The position numbers and the translations under genes were made by a program. The notes beneath the pieces were generated by a model that ran no database searches, was not told the DNA's origin, and was given only the letters and a program-made list of their open reading frames with translations. From the human T2T-CHM13v2.0 reference genome, Homo sapiens, in the NCBI GenBank assembly GCA_009914755.4, contig CP086569.2, positions 192,001 to 256,000 on the forward strand: a DNA stretch of 64,000 nt. The letters run 5' to 3'. Positions 5,946-63,310 of this stretch are shown here, piece by piece (positions within the stretch are counted from its first letter, which is position 1; each line of letters starts with the position of its first letter).

Positions 5946-6141
5946 CACCCACGGTGAGACTCAGTTGTTTTTCTCTGATCCCCATGTAGGAGGAACAGAG
6001 GCCGCCTCCGTGACCTGGGGCAGAGCAGGCTTCCCGCAGTAGCTGCCAACTGAGTGCTCCTTCAGCACAGCTTTACCTAAGGGCACACCCCTTCCCTGTG
6101 ATTCAGAACGTGACCTCTGTGTCCTGGGGCAGGAGGTCCCT

Positions 6142-9100
6142 GCATCTCCCCGAGCCCGCGATCCCACAGTGCATCTCCCCGAGCCCACGATCCCGCAGTG
6201 CATCTCCCCGAGCCCACGATCCCGCAGTGCATCTCCCCAAGCCCACCATCCCACAGTGCATCTCCCCGAGCCCACCGTCCCACAGTGCATCTCCCCGAGC
6301 CCACCATCCCACAGTGCATCTCCCCGAGCCCGCAATCCCACAATGCATCTCCCCGAGCCCGCGATCCCACAATGCATCTCCCCGAGCCCAGCATCCCACA
6401 ATGCATCTCCCCGAGCCCAGCATCCCACAATGCATCTCCCCAAGCCCGCGATCCCGCAGTGCATCTCCCCGAGCCCGCGATCCCGCAGTGCATCTCCATG
6501 AGTCCACGATCCCACAATGCATCTCCCCGTGCCCGCAATCCCACAATGCATCCCCCCGAGCCCACCATCCCACAGTCATCTCCCTGTGCCCACCATCCCA
6601 CAATGCATCTCCCCAAGCCCGCGATCCCACAGTGCATCTCCCCGAGCCCACGATCCCACAGTGCATCTCCCCGAGCCCACCATCCCACAATGCATCTCCC
6701 CGAGCCCACCATCCCACAATGCATCTCCCCGAGCCCACCATCCCACAATGCATCTCCCCGAGCCCACCATCCCACAATGCATCTCCCCGAGCCCACCATC
6801 CCACAGTGCATCTCCCCGAGCCCGCGATCCCACAGTGCATCTCCCCGAGCCCGCGATCCCACAGTGCATCTCCCCGAGCCCACCAACCCACAGTGCATCT
6901 CCCCGAGCCCACCATCCCACAGTGCATCTCCCCGAGCCCACCATCCCACAGTGCATCTCCCCGAGCCCACGATCCCACAGTGCATCTCCCCGTGCCCACG
7001 ATCCCACAGTGCATCTCCCCGAGCCCACCATCCCACAGTGCATCTCCCCGTGCCCACCATCCCACAGTGCATCTCCCCGAGCCCACGATCCCACAATGCA
7101 TCTCCCCGTGCCCACGATCCCACAATGCATCTCCCTGAGCCCACGATCCCACAATGCATCTCCCTGTGCCCACGATCCCACAGTGCATCTCTCTGAGCCC
7201 ACCATCCCACAATGCATCTCCCCGTGCCCGCAATCCCACAGTGCATCTCTCGAAGCCCACGATCCCACAATGCATCTCCCCGAGCCCACCATCCCACAAT
7301 GCATCTCCCCGTGCCCGCAATCCCACAGTGCATCTCTCCAAGCCCACGATCCCACAGTGCATCTCCGCGTGCCCACGATCCCACAGTGCATCTCCCCGAG
7401 CCCACGATCCCACAGTGCATCTCCCCGAGCCCACGATCCCACAGTGCATCTCCCCGTGCCCACGATCCCACAGTGCATCTCCCCGAGCCCACGATCCCAC
7501 AATGCATCTCCCCGAGCCCGCGATCCCACAGTGCATCTCCCCGAGCCCGCGATCCCACAGTGCATCTCCATGAGTCCACGATCCCACAGTGCATCTCCCC
7601 GTGCCCACGATCCCACAGTGCATCTCCCCGAGCCCACCATCCCACAGTGCATCTCCCCGTGCCCACCATCCCACAGTGCATCTCCCCGAGCCCACGATCC
7701 CACAATGCATCTCCCCGTGCCCACGATCCCACAATGCATCTCCCTGAGCCCACGATCCCACAATGCATCTCCCTGTGCCCACGATCCCACAGTGCATCTC
7801 TCCGAGCCCACCATCCCACAATGCATCTCCCCGTGCCCGCAATCCCACAGTGCATCTCTCGAAGCCCACGATCCCACAATGCATCTCCCCGAGCCCACCA
7901 TCCCACAATGCATCTCCCCGTGCCCGCAATCCCACAGTGCATCTCTCCAAGCCCACGATCCCACAGTGCATCTCCGCGTGCCCACGATCCCACAGTGCAT
8001 CTCCCCGAGCCCACGATCCCACAGTGCATCTCCCCGAGCCCACCATCCCACAGTGCATCTCCCCGAGCCCACCATCCCACAATGCATCTCCCCGAGCCCA
8101 CCATCCCACAATGCATCTCCCCGAGCCCACCATCCCACAATGCATCTCCCCGAGCCCACCATCCCACAATGCATCTCCCCGAGCCCGCGATCCCACAGTG
8201 CATCTCCCCGAGCCCGCGATCCCACAGTGCATCTCCCCGAGCCCACCAACCCACAGTGCATCTCCCCGAGCCCACCATCCCACAGTGCATCTCCCCGAGC
8301 CCACCATCCCACAGTGCATCTCCCCGAGCCCACGATCCCACAGTGCATCTCCCCGTGCCCACGATCCCACAGTGCATCTCCCCGAGCCCACCATCCCACA
8401 GTGCATCTCCCCGAGCCCACGATCCCACAGTGCATCTCCCCGTGCCCACGATCCCACAATGCATCTCCCTGAGCCCACGATCCCACAATGCATCTCCCTG
8501 TGCCCACGATCCCACAGTGCATCTCTCTGAGCCCACCATCCCACAATGCATCTCCCCGTGCCCGCAATCCCACAGTGCATCTCTCGAAGCCCACGATCCC
8601 ACAATGCATCTCCCCGAGCCCACCATCCCACAATGCATCTCCCCGTGCCCGCAATCCCACAGTGCATCTCTCCAAGCCCACGATCCCACAGTGCATCTCC
8701 GCGTGCCCACGATCCCACAGTGCATCTCCCCGAGCCCACGATCCCACAGTGCATCTCCCCGAGCCCACGATCCCACAGTGCATCTCCCCGTGCCCACGAT
8801 CCCACAGTGCATCTCCCCGTGCCCACGATCCCACAGTGCATCTCCCCGAGCCCACGATCCCACAATGCATCTCCCCGAGCCCGCGATCCCACAGTGCATC
8901 TCCCCGAGCCCGCGATCCCACAGTGCATCTCCATGAGTCCACGATCCCACAGTGCATCTCCCCGTGCCCACGATCCCACAGTGCATCTCCCCGAGCCCAC
9001 CATCCCACAGTGCATCTCCCCGTGCCCACCATCCCACAAAGCATCTCCCCGAGCCCACGATCCCACAATGCATCTCCCCGTGCCCACGATCCCACAATGC

Positions 9101-10515
9101 ATCTCCCTGAGCCCACGATCCCACAATGCATCTCCCTGTGCCCACGATCCCACAGTGCATCTCCCCGTGCCCGCAATCCCACAGTGCATCTCCCCGTGCC
9201 CGCAATCCCACAGTGCATCTCTCGAAGCCCACGATCCCACAATGCATCTCCCCGAGCCCACCATCCCACAATGCATCTCCCCGTGCCCGCAATCCCACAG
9301 TGCATCTCTCCAAGCCCACGATCCCACAGTGCATCTCCGCGTGCCCACGATCCCACAGTGCATCTCCCCGAGCCCACGATCCCACAGTGCATCTCCCCGA
9401 GCCCACGATCCCACAGTGCATCTCCCCGTGCCCACGATCCCACAGTGCATCTCCCCGAGCCCACGATCCCACAATGCATCTCCCCGAGCCCGCGATCCCA
9501 CAGTGCATCTCCCCGAGCCCGCGATCCCACAGTGCATCTCCATGAGTCCACGATCCCACAGTGCATCTCCCCGTGCCCACGATCCCACAGTGCATCTCCC
9601 CGAGCCCACCATCCCACAGTGCATCTCCCCGTGCCCACCATCCCACAGTGCATCTCCCCGTGCCCACCATCCCACAAAGCATCTCCCCGAGCCCACGATC
9701 CCACAATGCATCTCCCCGTGCCCACGATCCCACAATGCATCTCCCTGAGCCCACGATCCCACAATGCATCTCCCTGTGCCCACGATCCCACAGTGCATCT
9801 CTCCGAGCCCACCATCCCACAATGCATCTCCCCGTGCCCGCAATCCCACAGTGCATCTCTCGAAGCCCACGATCCCACAATGCATCTCCCCGAGCCCACC
9901 ATCCCACAATGCATCTCCCCGTGCCCGCAATCCCACAGTGCATCTCTCCAAGCCCACGATCCCACAGTGCATCTCCGCGTGCCCACGATCCCACAGTGCA
10001 TCTCCCCGAGCCCACGATCCCACAGTGCATCTCCCCGAGCCCACGATCCCACAGTGCATCTCCCCGTGCCCACGATCCCACAGTGCATCTCCCCGAGCCC
10101 ACGATCCCACAATGCATCTCCCCGAGCCCGCGATCCCACAGTGCATCTCCCCGAGCCCGCGATCCCACAGTGCATCTCCATGAGTCCACGATCCCACAGT
10201 GCATCTCCCCGTGCCCACGATCCCACAGTGCATATCCACGAGTCCACGATCCCACAATGCATCTTCCCATGCCCACGATCCCACAATGCATCTTCCCATG
10301 CCCACGATCCCACAGTCCATCTCCCCGTGCCCACAATCCCACAGTGCATCTCCCCAAGCCCACGATCCCACAGTGCATCTCCCCGTGCCCACGATCCCAC
10401 AGTGCATCTCCCCGAGCCCACGATCCCACAGTGCATCTCCCCGAGCCCGGGATCCCGCAGTGCATCTCCCCGAGCCCGGGATCCCACAGTGCATCTTCCC
10501 GAGCCCACAACGCAT
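6142..10515. repeat. 29-bp minisatellite (GCATCTCCCCGAGCCCACGATCCCACAGT)n, about 150 copies, about 4.4 kb, C-rich on plus strand and G-rich on minus
   Basis: Perfect 29-bp periodicity with variant units (GAG/GTG, ACG/ACC/GCG/GCA, CAGT/CAAT). Higher-order blocks recur every 21-25 units, for example identical 420-bp stretches starting at 7154, 9126 and 9764. Confidence 0.95.
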
Positions 10516-11180: not shown

Positions 11181-13061
<1,881 letters not shown>

Positions 13062-13879: not shown

Positions 13880-14762
13880 CTAGGCAAGGCGGAGCCCACC
13901 CACCCCGGGCACAGACACAGGGAAGGCCGGGACCACCCACCCTGGGCACAGACACGGGGAAGGCCGGGACCACCCACCTTGGGCACTGACGGGGGGAAGG
14001 CCGGGATCACCCACCCCGGGCACTGACGGGGGGAAGGCCGGGACCACCCACCCCGGGCACAGACACGGGGAAGGCCGGGACCACCCACCTTGGGCACCGA
14101 CGGGGGGAAGGCCGGGACCACCCACCTTGGGCACCGACACGGGGAAGGCCGGGACCACCCACCCCGGGCACCGACGGGGGGAAGGCCGGGACCACCCACC
14201 TTGGGCACCGACACGGGGAAGGCCGGGACCACCCACCCCGGGCACTGACGGGGGGGAAGGCCGGGACCACCCACCCCGGGCACCGACGGGGGGAAGGCCG
14301 GGACCACCCACCTTGGGCACCGACGGGGGGAAGGACGGGACCACCCACCCCGGGCACCGACGGGGGGAAGGCCGGGACCACCCACCCCGGGCACCGACCG
14401 GGGGAAGGCCGGGACCACCCACCCTGGGCACCGACGGGGGGAAGGCCGGGACCACCCACCCTGGGCACCGACCGGGGGAAGGCCGGGACCACCCACCCTG
14501 GGCACCGACGGGGGGAAGGCCGGGACCACCCACCTTGGGCACCGACGGGGGGAAGGCCGGGACCACCCACCTTGGGCACCGACGGGGGGAAGGCCGGGAC
14601 CACCCACCTTGGGCACCGACACGGGGAAGGCCGGGACCACCCACCCCGGGCACTGACGGGGGGAAGGCCGGGACCACCCACCTTGGGCACCGACCGGGGG
14701 AAGGCCAGGACCACCCACCCTGGGCACCGACGGGGGGAAAGCCGGGACCACCCACCATGGGC
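13880..14762. repeat. 37-bp minisatellite (GGGCACCGACGGGGGGAAGGCCGGGACCACCCACCYY)n, about 24 copies
   Basis: Regular 37-bp periodicity with variants (ACAGACAC vs ACCGAC, CCTT vs CCCC/CCCT). Generates Pro/Gly-rich pseudo-ORFs on both strands. Confidence 0.9.
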
Positions 14763-17700
14763 ACTAATAGACGAGAGATGGAACAAACAACACAACCACC
14801 CCATGCGGGCACAGAAGATTTACAAGCTTAATCTCATGGACAGAAATAGACTCGGCCCCAGCACAGCTGCAGAGCACACATTCTTTTCAACACACACAGC
14901 TCACTTGGGAACTGGCCACCTCTCGGGCTGAGCTGCAGGTCTCAGGGGGTTCTGAAGGAATCACAGGGACTGCTGCCCTGCCCCAAACGTAGCCGGTGAG
15001 GCCAGGCATCTACGGTAAACACAGAAGGAGCAAAAACAGCTGCATGTATGTGGAAGAAGAATTCTAAAGCCAGCCGCCTGTTCATTAAAAAGTTCAGACA
15101 AACCAGAGGGGCCTGTGGCGGCCAGGTCATCCACTTTAAATCCTCCTCAGTACGTGTACTTTAAAAAGAACTTCGTAAAGAGCCCGTCACCCAAAGCGCA
15201 CTGATAAAGGCGACACCCTGACTCCCAACAAGCTATTTCTGTTGAGGGCACTGAGAAGGCAGCTCCCTGACTCATCACAATTCCAGAAGTCACAGATACA
15301 TGTGTCGCCCTTCCAGAGTACACCCACAGTTTTGCAAAACACGTCCATATACGACCAAAAACAAAGGCTGAGCCTAACACTGAGGCTGCCTGTTTTTGCG
15401 TAGAAGTGCGTGCGCTTGATGGGTGCAGGTGAGTGTACCCCGAGAACACAGGCCACGTGCACCGTGACACATCCTCTCGCGACACCAGCCTCGGGCAGAC
15501 CCCCGCATGTGCAGAGGGTGCGCACAGCAGGCAGGGCGCGGTGACCAGCAGAAATGACCCTCGCCCCCACGGCAGCAGGACCGGACACCACGATCAAAGC
15601 CACAGAGGAGGTGCCGGAGCAGCAGGGGGCCGGCGGAAGGGACGCTCAGTACGGGCTGCAACGCACAGCCGTGCCCCCAGGAGCCCCCGCTCTGCAGCGG
15701 CCCCCACTCTGCAGCGGGAGGCGGAAGCACGGGAGGCTGTGGTATGGAATCAGGGACGGGGGGTTTGGCCGGGACGCACACTCATGGATTCCAGCTGAGC
15801 CCCTCGCCCACCCAGATGACGGCCACCCCCTGGAAGGCAGGGCCTGCTGCAAGCTCTGAGCATTCTTCTCGGCCCAGCACTTGACTCCCAGGGACCCTCT
15901 GAGAGGGCTGGTAGAGGGCTGCCAGCTACACCTGCAAACCGCACGCTGGACGGCTAAACACAGGAGTCAAAAAGGTCGGTGTTTACACAGAGGAGCCGAA
16001 CACGGAGATGAGAGGCCCCACGTGTGGGTTTAAAAATCCCCTCTCTAGCAAAGAGGGAGAACTGGTGTGGAGGGGTCAACACAGAAACGCAGCAGGTGCA
16101 GGTGTCTGAGTAGGCCAGAGCTCACGTGGGCTAACAGTCACTCAGACACATGACTGCAGCCGAGCAACCGGGCCTCAACGGACGCTGAGAGACGTCGGCT
16201 GGGGCCTGCACCCACACCTGCAGCCCAGGCACTGGCGCCTGCAGCCACGGCTGCAGCGAGGCGTGAGTCTCCACAGAGCTCGGAAGGCTGGGCTGGGGGA
16301 CGTGGGGATCATTCTGTCCACCAGCCAAGGGGTGACGGTGGATGCCGCGCAACACAGCGAGGGGAGGATCCGGCACCCTCCCTGCGTCCACAAGCCCCTG
16401 GCGGATGCTCCTGAGCTTGGTCTTCTGTGTGGACGTTCCCACCCGGGCTTCTGTTTCCCGTTAACCCCCCTTGCTGCAGCTCCCTGCCAGGTGGGGAACC
16501 CAAGCCCTGCCTTCTCCCTGCCACTGCCCAGGGAGTGGCATCCTGGGCAGCGTCCTGGCCAAACCAAAGGCTGCAAGGGTTTTGGTGACCACTGGCCTTG
16601 GGAGGGGAACGGCACGTGCCCTGGCGGTGAGAGCAGGAGGTGCGTCAGGGACGCCCAGAGCCCAGGCTGTCACCACGCTGAAGTCAGTTCCAAGTACAGC
16701 GGGGCTGCCGCGTAGGGGACGGCGCTTTCAGCCATGCGTGGTGCTGTGTAGGGTCTGTGCGTCCACCCGAAGGACCCCGTGGGGACGCCGGACAGTGTCT
16801 GTGTGACCAGGACAGGTGAAGAGGGGCGTCTGTGTGCTGAGTCAGTGTGTGGGGAGCGGGAGAGTCACTCCCCAGGCGGGGAGGGCCAGGCTAGGCAGCA
16901 CAGCTGTCCTGGGCTGGGAACAAGGTCTGAGCTGTCCTGCTGTTGCCCGGGGACAGAAGGCCCGAGAATCCCTGGGCAGGAGGCGCAGGCAGTGGCTCCG
17001 GCAAGAAGAGCTCAGCCAAGCAGCTGCACGGCCCCACTCCAGGTACATGCTGGGTCCTACAGTGAGAGCATGAGCCGTGTAACACGCCATCGTCACACGG
17101 GAGCCTCCCCGGACCCACGGTGAGAGTACGTGTAACACGCCATCGTCACACGGGAGCCTCCCCGGACCCACGGCGTGAACGCATGCTGTTCCGTTCCCAA
17201 GGCCGGCGGTCGCTGAACGCCCCCACCCCCCGAGTTTGGTTTGTCAAGGATGCCGGTGACAGGGAAGTGGGCAGTGGCAGGGAGGAGGAGGAGCTTGGGT
17301 TCACCATCGGGGCAGGCAGCACCCGCCAGGGGGTTAGTGGGAACAGAAGCCCAGGTGGGACGTCGCACAGTCAGAAGATCAAGCTCAGGAGCACCCGCCA
17401 GGGGCTCGTGGGTGCGGCCAACGTTGGCCGTGGAAGGCTGTGCCCGTCAGAGGACCCCTGAAAACAGTACCGTGCTGCCCGGCCGGGAGCGTCCGAAGGC
17501 GGAGGTGCGGCACCCCAACACGTCCAGTGGCTCCAACACGGGTGCTCCCTGACAACCCTGAGGGTGTGTCCAAGTGGGGTGGACCCAACAGACAGAGCCC
17601 ACACTCATGCGCGGAGTGAAAGCAGCCAGGAAACGTCCCCTTCTCCCCCAACACCACCCCCACAAATACCCCCAAATATGCCTGTAATTCCTCCACCACC

Positions 17701-21134: not shown

Positions 21135-21478
21135 ACCCAGTAACCCACGATGCGGGGCGCAAACTCACAGGGCAGAGGTGCCGCCCAGTCACCCACGATG
21201 CGGGGCGCAAACTCACAGGGCAGAGGTGCTGCCCAGTCACCCACGATGCAGGATGCAAACTCACAGGGCAGAGGTGCCGCCCAGTCACCCACGATGCAGG
21301 ATGCAAACTCACAGGGCAGAGGTGCGGCCCAGTAACCCATGATGTGGGGCACAAACTCACAGGGCAGAGGTGCCGTCCCGTCACCCACGATGCGGGGCGC
21401 AAACTCACAGGACAGAGGTGCCGCCCAGTCACCCACGATGTGGGGCGCAAACTCACAGGGCAGAGGTGCCGCCCCTTC
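21135..21478. repeat. 48-bp tandem repeat x7 (AGTCACCCACGATGCGGGGCGCAAACTCACAGGGCAGAGGTGCCGCCC)
   Basis: Visible 48-bp periodicity with GCGGGGCGC / GCAGGATGC / GTGGGGCAC variants. Confidence 0.85.
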
Positions 21479-22276: not shown

Positions 22277-23985
22277 CCATGGGGCCATCCACTACCGTGT
22301 ACAGGGACGGGCCGTCCACAGTGGGGCCGCCATGGGGCTGTCTATACACTACTGTATGCAGGGACGGGCCGTCCACACCCAGTGGGGCCGCCATGGGGCT
22401 GTCTATACACTACTGTGTACAGGGACGGGCCGTCCACAGTGGGGCCGCCATGGGGCTGTCTATACACTACTGTATACAGGGACGGGCCGTCCACAGTGGG
22501 GCCGCCATGGGGCTGTCTATACACTACTGTATGCAGGGACGGGCCGTCCACACCCAGTGGGGCCGCCATGGGGCTGTCTATACACTACTGTATGCAGGGA
22601 CGGGCCGTCCACACCCAGTGGGGCCGCCATGGGGCTGTCTATACACTACTGTATGCAGGGACGGGCCATCCACACCCAGTGGGGCCACCATGGGGCTGTC
22701 TATACACTACTGTGTACAGGGACGGGCCGTCCACACCCAGTGGGGCCACCATGGGGCTGTCTATACACTACTGTGTACAGGGACGGGCCGTCCACAGTGG
22801 GGCCGCCATGGGGCTGTCTATACACTACTGTATACAGGGACGGGCCGTCCACAGTGGGGCCGCCATGGGGCTGTCTATACACTACTGTATGCAGGGACGG
22901 GCCGTCCACACCCAGTGGGGCCGCCATGGGGCTGTCTATACACTACTGTATGCAGGGACGGGCCGTCCACACCCAGTGGGGCCGCCATGGGGCTGTCTAT
23001 ACACTACTGTATGCAGGGACGGGCCGTCCACACCCAGTGGGGCCGCCATGGGGCTGTCTATACACTACTGTGTACAGGGACGGGCCGTCCACACCCAGTG
23101 GGGCCACCATGGGGCTGTCTATACACTACTGTATGCAGGGACGGGCCGTCCACAGTGGGGCCGCCATGGGGCTGTCTATACACTACTGTGTACAGGGACG
23201 GGCCGTCCACACCCAGTGGGGCCGCCATGGGGCTGTCTATACACTACTGTATGCAGGGACGGGCCGTCCACAGTGGGGCCGCCATGGGGCTGTCTATACA
23301 CTACTGTGTACAGGGACGGGCCGTCCACACCCAGTGGGGCCGCCATGGGGCTGTCTATACACTACTGTGTACAGGGACGGGCCGTCCACAGTGGGGCCGC
23401 CATGGGGCTGTCTATACACTACTGTGTACAGGGACGGGCCGTCCACACCCAGTGGGGCCACCATGGGGCTGTCTATACACTACTGTGTACAGGGACGGGC
23501 CGTCTACAGTGGGGCCGCCATGGGGCTGTCTATACACTACTGTATGCAGGGACGGGCCGTCCACACCCAGTGGGGCCGCCATGGGGCTGTCTATACACTA
23601 CTGTGTACAGGGACGGGCCGTCCACACCCAGTGGGGCCACCATGGGGCTGTCTATACACTACTGTGTACAGGGACGGGCCGTCCACACCCAGTGGGGCCA
23701 CCATGGGGCTGTCTATACACTACTGTATGCAGGGACGGGCCGTCCACACCCAGTGGGGCCGCCATGGGGCTGTCTATACACTACTGTGTACAGGGACGGG
23801 CCATCCACACCCAGTGGGGCCACCATGGGGCTGTCTATACACTACTGTATGCAGGGACGGGCCGTCTACAGTGGGGCCGCCATGGGGCTGTCTATACACT
23901 ACTGTGTACAGGGACGGGCCGTCCACACTTGACAGGACCACCACAGGGCTGTCTATACACTACTGTGTACAGGGACGGGGCCGTC
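22277..23985. repeat. 57/61-bp minisatellite (CCATGGGGCTGTCTATACACTACTGT(A/G)T(G/A)CAGGGACGGGCCGTCCAC(ACCC)AGTGGGGCCG)n, about 29 copies
   Basis: Two interspersed unit lengths that differ by an ACCC insertion. The 57-bp (3x19) unit keeps the reading frame, which explains the 587-651 aa plus-strand pseudo-ORFs. Confidence 0.95.
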
Positions 23986-24909: not shown

Positions 24910-25395
24910 TGTATGTACATGCACCTGTGTGTGTGTATGCACCTGTGTGTTTGTGTGTATGCACCTGTGTGTGTGTATGCACCTACGTGTGTGTGTATGC
25001 ACCTGTGTGTGCACCTGTGTGTATGCACCTATGTGTGTGTATGCACCTATGTGTGCATGTACCTGTGTGTATGGACCTATGTATGTGTGTATGCGTGTGT
25101 ATGCACCTGTGTATGCACCTGTGTGTATGCACCTATGTGTGTGTGTGTGTATGGACCTATGTATGTGTATGCACCTGTGTGTATGTATCTGTGTGTATGG
25201 ACCTATGTATGTGTGTATGCGTGTGTATGCACCTGTTATGCACCTGTGTGTATGCACCTATGTGTGTATGTACCTGTGTATGCACCTATGTGTGTATGCA
25301 CCTATGTGTGTATGCACCTGTGTTTGTGCATATGCACCTGTGTGTGTGTATGCACCTGTGTGTTTGTGTGTATGCACCTGTGTGTGTGATGCACA
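24910..25395. repeat. TG-rich complex repeat (GTGTGTATGCACCTGTGT-like about 18-bp units), alternating purine-pyrimidine
   Basis: Repeated TGTGTGTATGCACCT / TGTATGGACCTATGTATG motifs over about 490 bp. Confidence 0.85.
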
Positions 25396-51788: not shown

Positions 51789-52439
51789 TGACGCGCATCG
51801 TGTAGATGGAAGAGAAATCAAACGGCACCGTCTGCCGGGGCGGGATTGCAGCCCGTTCCAATGTCTCATTTATTCCCCGGGTGCTGGGAGAGTCTCTGGG
51901 ATGACAAGACTGATGGTTCCTAACCCAGGCCGGGGCAACGCATGACTTTTGACGCCTCGGAGAAGCCCTTCCTTCCTGGACTGTATTCTGACAGGGAGTG
52001 CGTCTCACGCTTTACCCGACGGCGCCCAGAGCGACCTTCATCGCGGCCCACCGGCCAGGGCCGTCTTCTGGATCTTCAGCGGCTTGAGGAACTTTCTGTC
52101 CCCTTCTGGGTTGACTGAATTTTTATCGCGAAAAGGCACTGCCTTTGCTCAAATGCTTTTCCTGCATTTCTGCAAATGGTCATGTGAGTTTGGCCCCTTA
52201 GCCATGAATACGGTGCGTCACATTCACTGGTTTTCCAGAAAAGAGCTGTATAGAGAGAGAATTTACACAGCTGACAATGTGTCCGTTTAAACTCTTCCAA
52301 CCCGTGGCTTTCTGTATGCAGAGACTTGTGCCACCATCACCACAGTCTATTTTATTGCTTTACTTATATTTGTTTTTTTTTTTTTTTTTGAGACAGGGTC
52401 TCGCTCCTGTAGCCTTGGACTCTCAGGCTCAAGGGATCC

Positions 52440-54800
52440 TCCCTCCTCAGCTCCCCAAGTAGCCGGGCAACGTGGCTTCTCCCGAGTAGCTGGGTGACGC
52501 TGTTTCTCCAGAGTAGCTGGGTGACGCGGTTCCTCCCGAGTATCTGGGTGACGCGGCTTCTCCAGAGTTTCTGGGTGACGCGGCTTCTCCAGAGTAGCTG
52601 GAGGATGCTGTTTCTCCCGAGTAGCTGGGTGACGCTGTTTCTCCAGAGTAGCTGGGTGACGCGGTTTCTCCCGAGTATCTGGGTGAGGCGGCTTCTCCAG
52701 AGTTTCTGGGTGACGTGGCTTCTCCAGAGTAGCTGGAGGATGCTGTTTCTCCCGAGTAGCTGGGTGACGCCGTTTCTCCCGAGTAGCTGGGTGACGCTGT
52801 TTCTCCCGAGTAGCTGGGTGACGCTGTTTCTCCCGAGTAGCTGGGTGATGTTGTTTCTCCGGAGTAGCTGGTGACGCCGTTTCTCCCGAGTAGCTGGGTG
52901 ACGCCGTTTCTCCCGAGTAGCTGGGTGACGCTGTTTCTCCCGAGTAGCTGGGTGATGTTGTTTCTCCGGAGTAGCTGGTGACGCTGTTTCTCCGGAGTAG
53001 CTGGTGATGCCGTTTCTCCAGAGTAGCTGGTGATGCCGTTTCTCCCGAGTAGCTGGGTGATGCTGTTTCTCCAGAGTAGCTGGTGACGCTGTTTCTCCAG
53101 AGTAGCTGGTGACGCTGTTTCTCCCGAGTAGCTGGGTGAAGCCGTTTCTCCAGAGTAGCTGGTGACGCCGTTTCTCCCGAGTAGCTGGTGACGCCGTTTC
53201 TCCCGAGTAGCTGGTGACGCCGTTTCTCCCGAGTAGCTGGTGACGCCGTTTCTCCCGAGTAGCTGGTGACGCCGTTTCTCCAGAGTAGCTGAGTGACGCC
53301 GTTTCTCCCGAGTAGCTGGTGACGCCGTTTCTCCCGAGTAGCTGGTGACGCTGTTTCTCCCGAGTAGCTGAGTGACGCCGTTTCTCCCGAGTAGCTGGTG
53401 ACGCCGTTTCTCCCGAGTAGCTGGTGATGCTGTTTCTCCCGAGTAGCTGGTGATGCTGTTTCTCCCGAGTAGCTGGGTGACGCCGTTTCTCCCGAGTAGC
53501 TGAGTGACGCCGTTTCTCCCGAGTAGCTGAGTGACGCCGTTTCTCCCGAGTAGCTGGTGACGCCATTTCTCCTGAGTAGCTGAGTGACGCCGTTTCTCCC
53601 GAGTAGCTGGTGACGCCGTTTCTCCCGAGTAGCTGGTGACGCCGTTTCTCCCGAGTAGCTGGGTGACGCCGTTTCTCCCGAGTAGCTGGTGACGCCGTTT
53701 CTCCCGAGTAGCTGGTGACGCTGTTTCTCCAGAGTAGCTGGTGACGCTGTTTCTCCCGAGTAGCTGAGTGACGCCGTTTCTCCCGAGTAGCTGGTGACGC
53801 CGTTTCTCCCGAGTAGCTGGTGACGCCGTTTCTCCCGAGTAGCTGGTGACGCTGTTTCTCCAGAGTAGCTGGTGACGCCGTTTCTCCCGAGTAGCTGGGT
53901 GAAGCCGTTTCTCCAGAGTAGCTGGTGACGCCGTTTCTCCCGAGTAGCTGGTGACGCCGTTTCTCCCGAGTAGCTGGTGACGCCGTTTCTCCCGAGTAGC
54001 TGGTGACGCCGTTTCTCCCGAGTAGCTGGTGACGCCGTTTCTCCCGAGTAGCTGGTGACGCCGTTTCTCCAGAGTAGCTGAGTGACGCCGTTTCTCCAGA
54101 GTAGCTGGTGACGCCGTTTCTCCCGAGTAGCTGGTGACGCCGTTTCTCCCGAGTAGCTGGTGACGCCGTTTCTCCCGAGTAGCTGGTGACGCCGTTTCTC
54201 CCGAGTAGCTGGTGACGCCGTTTCTCCAGAGTAGCTGGTGACGCTGTTTCTCCAGAGTAGCTGGTGACGCCGTTTCTCCCGAGTAGCTGGGTGATGTTGT
54301 TTCTCCGGAGTAGCTGGTGACGCCGTTTCTCCCGAGTAGCTGGTGACGCCGTTTCTCCCGAGTAGCTGAGTGACGCCGTTTCTCCAGAGTAGCTGAGTGA
54401 CGCCGTTTCTCCCGAGTAGCTGAGTGACGCCGTTTCTCCCGAGTAGCTGGTGACGCCGTTTCTCCCGAGTAGCTGGTGACGCCGTTTCTCCCGAGTAGCT
54501 GGTGACGCCGTTTCTCCCGAGTAGCTGGTGACGCCGTTTCTCCAGAGTAGCTGGTGACGCCGTTTCTCCCGAGTAGCTGGGTGACGCCGTTTCTCCCGAG
54601 TAGCTGGTGACGCCGTTTCTCCGGAGTAGCTGGTGACGCCGTTTCTCCCGAGTAGCTGGGTGACGCGGCTTCTCCCGAGTAGCTGGGTGACGCGGCTTCT
54701 CCCGAGTAGCTGGGTGACGCGGTTTCTCCAGAGTAGCTGGGTGATGCGGTTTCTCCCGAGTAGCTGGGTGACGCGGTTTTTCCTGAGTAGCTGGGTGACA
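52440..54800. repeat. 26/27-bp minisatellite (GAGTAGCTGG(G)TGACGC(C/T)GTTTCTCC(C/A))n, about 90 copies, about 2.4 kb
   Basis: Strict 26/27-bp periodicity. The unit begins with the Alu-derived CCCGAGTAGCTGGG motif and the array starts inside an Alu-like fragment at about 52400. Stop-free, which yields 784-825 aa pseudo-ORFs. Confidence 0.95.
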
Positions 54801-54949
54801 TGGTTTGGCTATGTCCCCTCCCAAGGTTTACCTTGAACGGTTATCATCCCCACGTGTCAAGGGCAGGGCCAGGTGGAGAGAATTGAATCATAGGGTCAGT
54901 TTCCCCCAGACTGTTCTCGTGGTAGTGAATAGGTCTCATGAGATCTGAT

Positions 54950-55215
54950 TTTTTTTTTTTTTTTTTTTTTGAGACAGAGTCTCGCTCTTGTCACCCAGGC
55001 TGGAGTGCAATATCATGATCTCGGCTCACTGCAACCTCTGCCTCCCAAGTAGCTGGGATTACAAGCACCCGCCACCACACCTGGCTAATTTTTTGTATTT
55101 TTAATAGAAACGAGGTTTCACCATGTTGGCCACGTTGATCTCAAACTCCTCACCTCAGGTGATCTACCCTCCTCAGCCTCCCAAAGTGCTGGGATGACAG
55201 GCGTGAGCCACCGTG
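54950..55215 (-). mobile_element. Alu SINE
   Basis: (T)30 GAGACAGAGTCTCGCTCTTGTCACCCAGGCTGGAGTGCAATATCATGATCTCGGCTCACTGCAACC...GAGCCACCGTGCCCGGCC. Confidence 0.85.
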
Positions 55216-55433
55216 CCCGGCCAAGATCTGATGGTTTTATAAATGGGAGCACCCCTCTATACGCCCTTTTTTTGCCTGCCGCCATGTAAGATGTGACTTT
55301 GCTCCTTCTTCGTCTTCCGCCATGATTGTGAGGCCTCCCCAGCCATGCGGAAATGTGAGTCCATTAAACCTCTTTCCTTTATAAATTACCCCATCTTCGT
55401 TATGCCTTTATTAGCAGCCTGAGAACAGACTAG

Positions 55434-55945
<512 letters not shown>

Positions 55946-56685: not shown

Positions 56686-57120
<435 letters not shown>

Positions 57121-57170: not shown

Positions 57171-57834
<664 letters not shown>

Positions 57835-61289: not shown

Positions 61290-61445
61290 TCGTTTGTTTG
61301 TTTTTGAGACGGAGTCTCGCTCTGTCACCCAGGCTGGAGTGCAGTGGTGTGATCTCGGCTCACTGCAACCTCCGCCTCCTGGTTCAAGCGATTCTCCTGC
61401 CTCAGCCTCTTGAGGAGCTGGGACTACAGACATACACCATCACAC
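61290..61445 (-). mobile_element. Partial Alu
   Basis: TTTGTTTGTTTTTGAGACGGAGTCTCGCTCTGTCACCCAGGCTGGAGTGCAGTGGTGTGATCTCGGCTCACTGCAACC... Confidence 0.85.
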
Positions 61446-61459
61446 CTGGCTAATATTTA

Positions 61460-62170
<711 letters not shown>

Positions 62171-62383: not shown

Positions 62384-63310
<927 letters not shown>

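What the first reader, a model, noticed from the sequence alone, without database searches (positions are those of the whole stretch)
52370..54800. 2.4-kb 26/27-bp minisatellite nucleated from an Alu internal segment
The unit GAGTAGCTGG(G)TGACGC(C/T)GTTTCTCC(C/A) begins with the Alu motif CCCGAGTAGCTGGG. The array starts inside an Alu-like fragment at 52395-52440 (..CCTCCTCAGCTCCCCAAGTAGCCGGGCAACGTGGCTTCTCCCGAGTAGCTGGGTGACGC..). This suggests a roughly 27-bp piece of an Alu was captured and amplified to about 90 copies. At the array edges (52440-52760 and 54640-54800) a GGGTGACGCGG(C/T)TTCTCC variant predominates, while the core uses GGTGACGCCGTTTCTCC. This points to expansion from the centre. 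The unit is stop-free on the minus strand, which gives the 784-825 aa pseudo-ORFs.
Basis: partly seen in the sequence, partly recalled or inferred. Interest (0 to 1): 0.55.

Follow-up and report, generated by a model that had tools for sequence, protein, structure and literature searches.

The report
Minisatellite born at an Alu–LTR junction
A real 2.3-kb array of about 88 copies of a 26/27-bp unit is an ordinary non-coding primate minisatellite, and its unit is a hybrid: 16 bp from an old Alu plus the first 11 bp of a retroviral-type LTR that had inserted into that Alu.

Summary
TRF finds one array at 52477-54799 with a 26-bp period, 87.8 copies and 93% matches. It has 27-bp units at both edges and a derived 26-bp core, and its minus strand has no stop codons.

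The left flank is the 3' half of an antisense AluJ (Alu positions 165-289). The right flank, from 54796, is a complete MaLR-type solo LTR running from TG to CA. The 5' half of the same AluJ (positions 13-169) resumes directly after the LTR at 55438. Alu positions 165-169 are duplicated on both sides of the LTR (CTGGG | LTR | CTTGG), which is a 5-bp target-site duplication. The LTR therefore inserted into the Alu.

The repeat unit is the 27 bp spanning that junction. It consists of Alu 180→165 (CTCCCGAGTAGCTGGG, 16/16) plus LTR positions 1-11. That 11-mer is TGACATGGTTT in this copy and TGATATGGTTT in eight independent copies; the edge units read TGACGCGGTTT.

The array then grew by multi-unit block duplication. 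A one-base-deleted 26-bp variant swept the centre. I found no evidence of coding, RNA or hairpin function.

It is a new member of a known kind, the TE-derived minisatellites, and sits in a window full of other such arrays. Orthologous primate sequence could not be obtained.

The parts
52373..52467 (-). 3' half of an AluJ-like element: A-tail (seen as 17 T at 52373-52389) and right arm, Alu positions 289→165, with a 40-bp internal deletion (Alu 226-265). Its last 16 bp (52452-52467) form the Alu part of repeat unit 1.
   Evidence: That consensus was validated by about 90 Alu matches in the window.
52452..54806 (.). Minisatellite of 89 copies of the 27/26-bp junction unit [CTCCCGAGTAGCTGGG][TGACGCGGTTT]. 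Copy 89 (54780-54806) is the native Alu/LTR junction itself. The sequence has 59% GC, 204 CpG and CpG observed/expected of 1.0.
   Evidence: TRF 52477-54799; unit tables; composition.
52479..52748 (.). Left-edge higher-order duplication: a 5-unit (135-bp) block present twice, 132/135 identical.
   Evidence: Unit map DQRSK/DTUVK; pairwise identity.
52857..54644 (.). Derived core (units 16-83). It contains all 48 of the 26-bp units (one G lost from GGG) and all 10 GAG variants, mostly with GCCG. One unit type occurs 26 times.
54791..54795 (.). Left copy of the 5-bp target-site duplication of the LTR insertion (CTGGG = Alu 165-169, antisense).
   Evidence: Alu coordinates of the two Alu pieces overlap by positions 165-169.
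54796..55437 (+). MaLR-type (THE1/MST-like; family name from memory) solo LTR running from TGACATGG to CTAGTACA. It is 359 bp without the nested Alu. Its first 11 bp (54796-54806) are the non-Alu part of the repeat unit.
   Evidence: Alignment with 8 independent copies (L001-L009 except L005) found in contaminated bacterial assemblies. Homology among them starts at TGATATGGTTTGG and ends at GACTAATACA. The window copy is 83% identical to their consensus.
54950..55232 (-). Younger antisense AluS-like element nested in the LTR, with its right-hand target-site duplication copy. AGATCTGAT occurs at 54941-54949 and again at 55224-55232. It is not part of the array.
   Evidence: blastn; sequence read.
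55438..55442 (.). Right copy of the 5-bp target-site duplication (CTTGG, 4/5 match to CTGGG).
   Evidence: and sequence.
55438..55612 (-). 5' half of the same AluJ. Alu positions 169→13 are aligned over 55438-55600; the extension to about 55612 was read by eye.
   Evidence: Local alignment score 128.5; blastn.

Best explanation
This is a non-coding minisatellite (VNTR) that arose in place at the boundary between two nested transposable elements. The steps are as follows.

1. An AluJ inserted in antisense orientation (shown).
2. A MaLR-type LTR element integrated into that Alu at Alu positions 165-169, duplicating CCCAG. It is now a solo LTR (shown).
3. The 27 bp spanning the left junction were duplicated in tandem. 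These are 16 bp of Alu (CTCCCGAGTAGCTGGG) plus the first 11 bp of the LTR (TGAYATGGTTT). This step is inferred from the register and sequence of the units.
4. The LTR-derived part changed stepwise from ACATGG to ACGTGG, then ACGCGG, then ACGCCG or ACGCTG. All of these states are still present, but the direction of change is inferred.
5. The array grew by unequal exchange or replication slippage of single units and multi-unit blocks. The duplicated blocks are shown; the mechanism is inferred.
6. A variant that had lost one G (26 bp) expanded in the middle and pushed the older 27-bp units to both edges (inferred).

The most likely present role is none beyond being an unstable, CpG-dense tandem array. 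The long minus-strand ORFs are a by-product of a unit without stop codons.
For: - **Array is real.**
- **Left flank.** AluJ positions 165-289.
- **Right flank.** The sequence from 54796 belongs to an LTR family. Eight independent copies begin to align exactly at TGATATGGTTTGGCTGTGTCCCC and stop at GACTAATACA. The window copy is full length and 83% identical to their consensus.
- **Alu continuity.** The Alu resumes at 55438 at Alu position 169. Positions 165-169 therefore flank the LTR on both sides, as CTGGG and CTTGG.
- **Unit versus predicted junction.** The edge unit matches the predicted 27-mer at 25/27 using this LTR copy and 24/27 using the external consensus, without gaps.
- **The 11-mer.**
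  - The non-Alu 11-mer matches LTR positions 1-11 at 8/11.
  - That is the single best site of 708 positions scanned in the LTR, and it is the only a priori predicted register.
  - The binomial P for at least 8/11 is 1.2e-3.
- **Position of ancestral-like units.** The units closest to the predicted junction (2 differences) sit next to the LTR (units 86, 88, 89).
- **Edges were once adjacent.** They share the derived GCGGCTT form, which is absent from the core.
- **Block duplication.** A 135-bp block is duplicated at 132/135 identity, and the unit string LBAAAA(A)I recurs in the core.
- **No coding signal.**
  - The ORF product has no homologue among 5.8 billion proteins.
  - Each 26-bp unit shifts the reading frame, and all three minus frames are open.
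- **Precedent.** TE-derived minisatellites make up 23% of human minisatellites (PMC3389668).
Against: - The unit's 11-mer also matches an Alu left-arm segment, AGACGGGGTTT, at 9/11 for AluS/Y consensus and 8/11 for AluJ. Two Alus elsewhere in the window match the 17-mer within 3 mismatches.
- Going from the LTR state ACATGG to the unit state ACGCGG needs two AT→GC transitions that create CpGs, which is against the usual mutational direction. The opposite reading, CpG decay in the terminal copy, is equally possible for those two bases.
- No short direct repeat flanks the reconstructed founder segment at 27-bp spacing, so how the first duplication arose is unexplained.
- No orthologous or allelic sequence covering the array was found, so the pre-duplication state has not been seen.
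- The family name THE1/MST and the Alu consensus sequences come from memory. Only their fit to sequences retrieved here was tested.
Confidence: 0.85

Rival explanations
1. Pure Alu origin. The whole unit derives from Alu sequence. The second half would come from the Alu left-arm segment GAGACGGGGTTTCACC, or from GGGTTCAAGCGATTCTCC, joined to GAGTAGCTGGG by internal deletion and then amplified.
For: - The 11-mer matches AGACGGGGTTT at 9/11 in AluS/Y consensus and 8/11 in AluJ consensus.
- The only two window matches to the 17-mer outside the array lie at that Alu site, at 45859 and 51653.
Against: - That match is the best of about 560 scanned Alu positions, so about 0.07 hits at 9/11 or better, and about 0.7 at 8/11 or better, are expected by chance. 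This is calculated from the binomial tails.
- The resident AluJ reaches only 7/11 anywhere, and its own copy of that segment (about 55497-55515) is no better than 6/11.
- That segment lies beyond the LTR, about 700 bp away, so extra rearrangements are needed.
- The model does not explain why the array is in exact register with LTR position 1.
Confidence: 0.07
2. The array existed inside the Alu before the LTR arrived. The LTR then happened to integrate into the CTGGG of the last unit.
For: The target-site duplication and Alu continuity are compatible with integration into any CTGGG that is followed by native Alu sequence.
Against: - The LTR's first 11 bp would have to resemble the unit's non-Alu 11-mer by chance (P about 1.2e-3).
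- The insertion would have to hit the one copy out of about 89 that is followed by native Alu sequence.
- No Alu-only source for the 11-mer is present in the resident element.
Confidence: 0.04
3. The repeat is a functional element: a coding repeat protein, a structured RNA, or a hairpin-forming expandable repeat.
For: - Minus-strand ORFs of 784-825 aa exist.
- The array has CpG observed/expected of 1.0 and 59% GC over 2.36 kb, which meets sequence criteria for a CpG island.
Against: - The ORF product has no protein homologue.
- The reading frame changes at each 26-bp unit, and all three frames are open simply because the unit lacks stop codons.
- There is no Rfam match in the window.
- Single-strand folding is no more stable than shuffled sequence, with z from -0.7 to +2.4.
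Confidence: 0.03
4. Assembly artefact: a much shorter array inflated by mis-assembly.
For: Nothing found here points to it. Long near-identical tandem arrays are error-prone in assemblies.
Against: - There are 30 distinct unit types arranged in an ordered edge/core pattern with nested block duplications, rather than a run of identical copies.
- The flanks are clean.
Confidence: 0.01

Closest known systems
Alu-derived / TE-derived minisatellites (Jurka & Gentles 2006, Gene 365:21; Ahmed & Liang 2012, PMC3389668)
   Same: - A segment of a resident transposable element is tandemly amplified in place.
- The units match each other better than anything else.
- Older elements such as AluJ carry longer arrays.
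- Initiation is mostly unexplained by flanking direct repeats, as it is here.
   Different: - The unit is not from one element. It spans the junction of an AluJ and an LTR nested in it.
- About 88 copies is far above the mean of about 2.4 copies reported for AluJ-derived arrays.
Classical human minisatellites that expanded from within a retroviral LTR-like sequence or from Alu ends (Armour et al. 1989, NAR 17:4925, as cited in PMC2820488)
   Same: A GC-rich array with a short unit, embedded in dispersed repeats, in a minisatellite-rich region.
   Different: - The original paper could not be read here, so the comparison rests on the secondary citation and on memory.
- Hypervariability of this array is untested.
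SVA / LAVA composite retrotransposons (Alu-like antisense region followed by a VNTR)
   Same: There is a superficial resemblance in layout: an antisense Alu fragment immediately followed by a GC-rich VNTR.
   Different: - There is no (CCCTCT)n hexamer.
- There is no SINE-R; the downstream element is a MaLR-type LTR.
- The Alu continues after the LTR, which shows simple nesting.
- The unit is 26/27 bp and unrelated to the SVA VNTR (the latter from memory).
- The array is not part of a mobile unit.

Membership tests
TE-derived minisatellite | Tandem array with a unit of roughly 10-100 bp and at least 2 copies | tested here: met
   26/27-bp unit, 87.8 copies, 93% matches.
TE-derived minisatellite | Unit homologous to a TE sequence, or array overlapping a resident TE by at least one period | tested here: met
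   16/16 bp match Alu 165-180 in register with the resident AluJ. The other 11 bp match LTR positions 1-11 at 8-9/11.
TE-derived minisatellite | In-place expansion at a single locus rather than spread by transposition | tested here: inconclusive
   - No other copy occurs in the window.
- There were no hits in viral contigs, in metagenome contigs, or in the protein database.
- No primate genome was available to search.
TE-derived minisatellite (Haber-Louis initiation model) | Founder segment flanked by short direct repeats of 5-20 bp | tested here: not met
   The reconstructed Alu|LTR junction shows no direct repeat at 26-28 bp spacing at the unit boundaries. This is a feature of one initiation model, not of the class.
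MaLR (THE1/MST-type) solo LTR | TG...CA termini, about 350-370 bp, and homology to family copies over the full length | tested here: met
   - The element runs from TGACATGG to CTAGTACA and is 359 bp without the nested Alu.
- It is 83% identical to the consensus of 8 independent copies, whose mutual homology starts and ends at the same points.
- The family name was not checked against Dfam or Repbase.
MaLR (THE1/MST-type) solo LTR | 5-bp target-site duplication (family property from memory) | tested here: met
   CTGGG (54791-54795) and CTTGG (55438-55442) both correspond to Alu 165-169.
SVA-type composite element | 5' (CCCTCT)n, Alu-like region, VNTR, SINE-R and poly-A, all within one target-site duplication | tested here: not met
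   - There is no hexamer repeat anywhere in the window.
- The array is followed by an LTR and then by the rest of the same Alu.
Protein-coding tandem repeat | One maintained reading frame and detectable homologues | tested here: not met
   26-bp units shift the frame; all three minus frames are open; there are no homologues.
CpG island | Sequence criteria (length over 200 bp, GC over 50%, CpG observed/expected over 0.6; criteria from memory) | tested here: met
   2355 bp, 59.2% GC, observed/expected 1.0.
CpG island | Germline hypomethylation or promoter activity | not testable with these tools
   No methylation or expression data were available.

The most novel reading that the evidence does not exclude
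Two readings remain possible. In the first, the dense CpG content (observed/expected 1.0 across 2.36 kb) is maintained because the array is unmethylated in the germline and acts as a recombination- or conversion-active, possibly regulatory, VNTR. The AT→GC steps from the LTR sequence to the unit would then reflect GC-biased gene conversion. In the second, the first duplication was a by-product of the LTR integration and repair event itself.
Probability: 0.07. Interest if true: 0.5.

Novelty: new member of a known kind. Interest (0 to 1): 0.2.

Why it matters
- It is a clean worked example of a minisatellite unit that can be traced base by base to the junction of two nested transposable elements. 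The ancestral single copy is still in place at the array's end.
- It cautions against naming a repeat 'Alu-derived' from a partial motif match.
- The array is probably length-polymorphic and CpG-dense, so it could matter as a VNTR marker or methylation target. Nothing here suggests a special function.

Tried and rejected
- **Protein homology.** The 784-aa ORF product had no hit at E ≤ 1e-3.
- **Rfam.** No match over the whole window.
- **Hairpin or slipped-strand stability.** Folding five-unit stretches of both strands, core and edge, gave energies no better than shuffles.
- **SVA-like composite.** No CCCTCT hexamer.
- **Array sequence in public collections.** Exact scans found nothing in viral contigs or metagenome contigs (two patterns).
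- **LTR pattern in viral contigs.** None.
- **Look-ups of six flank ORFs.**
  - Five were not on record.
  - One returned a 646-bp contig, L010, 99.5% identical to 55049-55695. It does not reach the array.
- **Flanking direct repeats.** None found as an initiation signal.
- **Full-text literature search.** The unit gave no hits and the LTR terminus gave nothing relevant.
- **Armour et al. 1989.** Not held in the library.
- **Other Alu sources for the 11-mer.** Alu 188-205 needs gaps, and Alu 150-164 is a poor match; both were judged by eye.
- **AluJ target-site duplication.** None recognisable, by inspection.
- **Locus and species.** Not identified. I ran no further search on this.

Full report
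**1. The observation**

Tandem Repeats Finder reports a single array at 52477-54799 with period 26, 87.8 copies, 93% matches and score 3621. Alternative periods of 79 and 105 reflect mixtures of 26- and 27-bp units. Splitting on the AGTAGCTG anchor gives 88 units plus a last copy that runs into the right flank.

A 17-mer from the unit, with up to 3 mismatches, occurs 85 times in the array and twice elsewhere. Shuffles give 0.17 expected matches in the whole window.

The minus-strand ORFs of 825 and 784 aa are present. Tandem 26-mers and 27-mers have no stop codon in any minus-strand frame. The coordinates, copy number, unit, edge/core contrast and pseudo-ORFs are therefore all confirmed.

**2. 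The flanks**

*Left flank.* Positions 52373-52467 align in antisense to an AluJo consensus. They cover Alu positions 165-289 with a 40-bp internal deletion and a 17-T tail.

*Right flank.* From 54796 the sequence reads TGACATGGTTTGGCTATGTCCCC. I recognised this from memory as the 5' end of a THE1/MST-type MaLR LTR. To test it without a repeat library, I scanned bacterial and archaeal genome contigs for a 21-mer from the middle of the element. This returned nine contaminant loci. Aligned with the window copy (nested Alu removed), eight of them show mutual homology that begins exactly at TGATATGGTTTGGCTGTGTCCCC and ends at GACTAATACA, with unrelated sequence outside.

The window copy runs from TGACATGG (54796) to CTAGTACA (55437). 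It is 359 bp without the nested Alu and 83% identical to the external consensus. A younger antisense Alu at 54950-55222 interrupts it and is flanked by AGATCTGAT duplications.

**3. The LTR sits inside the Alu**

Immediately after the LTR, 55438-55600 aligns in antisense to AluJo positions 13-169. The left Alu piece, and the Alu part of every repeat unit, ends at Alu position 165. Alu positions 165-169 (CCCAG) therefore occur on both sides of the LTR, as CTGGG at 54791-54795 and CTTGG at 55438-55442.

Three features together are the signature of an LTR-element integration into a pre-existing AluJ, now a solo LTR:
- a 5-bp target-site duplication;
- TG...CA termini;
- uninterrupted Alu coordinates across the insert.

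MaLR MST/THE1 elements are primate-specific and were last active more than 40 million years ago (PMC10735291). This gives an upper bound for the array's age only if the family assignment is right.

**4. What the unit is**

Phased at the junction, each unit is [CTCCCGAGTAGCTGGG][TGACGCGGTTT].
- The first 16 bp equal Alu 180→165 exactly.
- The remaining 11 bp occupy exactly the slot that LTR positions 1-11 fill in the last copy. Those positions read TGACATGGTTT in this LTR and TGATATGGTTT in the external consensus.

The edge unit matches the predicted junction 27-mer at 25/27 (this LTR copy) or 24/27 (external consensus), without gaps.

Scanning the 11-mer over the 364-bp external LTR consensus on both strands, the only site with at least 8/11 is position 1 on the plus strand, which is the one register predicted in advance. 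The binomial P for at least 8/11 at one site is 1.2e-3.

The units closest to the predicted junction (2 differences) are 86, 88 and 89, next to the LTR. The states ACATGG (LTR), ACGTGG (units 1 and 10), ACGCGG (edges) and ACGCCG/ACGCTG (core) form a chain of single steps. The direction of those changes is inferred.

**5. The main rival**

The 11-mer also matches the Alu left-arm segment AGACGGGGTTT, at 9/11 for AluS/Y consensus and 8/11 for AluJ consensus. The two extra window hits lie at that Alu site.

Four points count against this rival:
- It is the best of about 560 scanned Alu positions.
- The resident AluJ itself reaches only 7/11 anywhere, and no better than 6/11 at that segment.
- The segment lies on the far side of the LTR.
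- The model leaves the exact register with LTR position 1 to chance.

A second rival has the LTR inserting into the last unit of an older array. It needs the same 1e-3 coincidence and also needs the insertion to hit one copy out of about 89. I put the junction model at about 0.85.

**6. Growth of the array**

There are thirty unit types. Units 1-15 and 84-89 are all 27 bp, and all 48 of the 26-bp units lie in 16-83. The derived GCGGCTT form (column 25 = C, 7 units) occurs only at the two edges.

Multi-unit duplication is also visible:
- A 5-unit block is present twice at the left edge, 132/135 identical.
- The unit string LBAAAA(A)I recurs 29 units apart in the core.

The reconstructed founder segment has no flanking direct repeat. 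The first duplication therefore does not fit the Haber-Louis model, which is also true of most TE-derived arrays (PMC3389668).

**7. Function**

The evidence is negative:
- no protein homologues;
- no maintained reading frame;
- no Rfam family;
- no excess single-strand stability.

The array is CpG-dense, with 204 CpG, observed/expected 1.0 and 59% GC. This may reflect recent turnover or low germline methylation, and the sequence alone cannot tell which.

**8. Context and comparison**

The window holds many other arrays. Examples are 29 bp x150 at 6141-10508, 61 bp x28 at 22290-23985, 37 bp x23.5 at 13896-14764, and several Alu-internal arrays with 132-166 bp periods. It also has very dense Alus. 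This array is therefore one of many in a repeat-prone region.

TE-derived minisatellites are well documented:
- 23% of human minisatellites are TE-derived.
- AluJ-derived arrays average 2.42 units (PMC3389668).
- Minisatellites arising from LTR-like sequences and from Alu ends have been reported earlier (Armour 1989 and Jurka & Gentles 2006, as cited in PMC2820488).

The hybrid Alu/LTR unit and the copy number are unusual details within that class. The unit sequence was not found in the full-text library.

**9. Limits**

No orthologous or allelic sequence covering the array could be obtained. Neither the species nor the locus was identified. Family names and Alu consensus sequences come from memory and were tested only against sequences retrieved here.

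Noticed in passing
window 6141-10508: A very large minisatellite: 29-bp unit TGCATCTCCCCGAGCCCACGATCCCACAG, 150.7 copies, 91% matches, 4.4 kb, with strong C-over-G skew. It gives pseudo-ORFs of up to 1534 aa on both strands.
   Followed up: no
window 22290-23985; 13896-14764; 21136-21474; 24972-25323: Further GC-rich minisatellites: 61 bp x28 with 118- and 358-bp higher-order periods, 37 bp x23.5, 48 bp x7, and 44 bp x8. The window looks like a subtelomere-like, minisatellite-dense region. The locus was not identified.
   Followed up: no
window 11358-12836; 35434-36330; 42733-43059; 45261-45972; 56689-56991; 61297-62164; 62743-63086: Several tandem arrays made of partial Alu sequences with periods of 132-173 bp. 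The largest is 165 bp x9 at 98% matches. These are Alu-internal tandem duplications of the kind described by Ahmed & Liang.
   Followed up: partly
whole window: About 90 Alu segments in 64 kb, including AluY-like copies at 95-97% identity to consensus (for example 29455-29740 and 57511-57799). This implies a catarrhine primate source. Window GC is 54% and CpG observed/expected is 0.58.
   Followed up: partly
L001-L009 (bacterial/archaeal genome assemblies): Nine short contigs deposited under bacterial names (for example Mycobacterium ostraviense, Chromatium weissei, Streptomyces sp. DH5) carry primate MaLR LTR sequence. This is presumably host or human contamination of those assemblies.
   Followed up: partly
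L010 (ENA metagenome ERZ23491056 scaffold, 646 bp) = window 55049-55695: A metagenome contig 99.5% identical to the LTR / AluJ right-hand region of this locus, presumably host DNA from the same or a very close species.
   Followed up: yes
window 51900-52140: A CpG-rich, non-Alu stretch just upstream of the AluJ (for example CGACGGCGCCCAGAGCGACCTTCATCGCGGCCCACCGGCC). It has only short ORFs and no other copy in the window. Its nature is undetermined.
   Followed up: no
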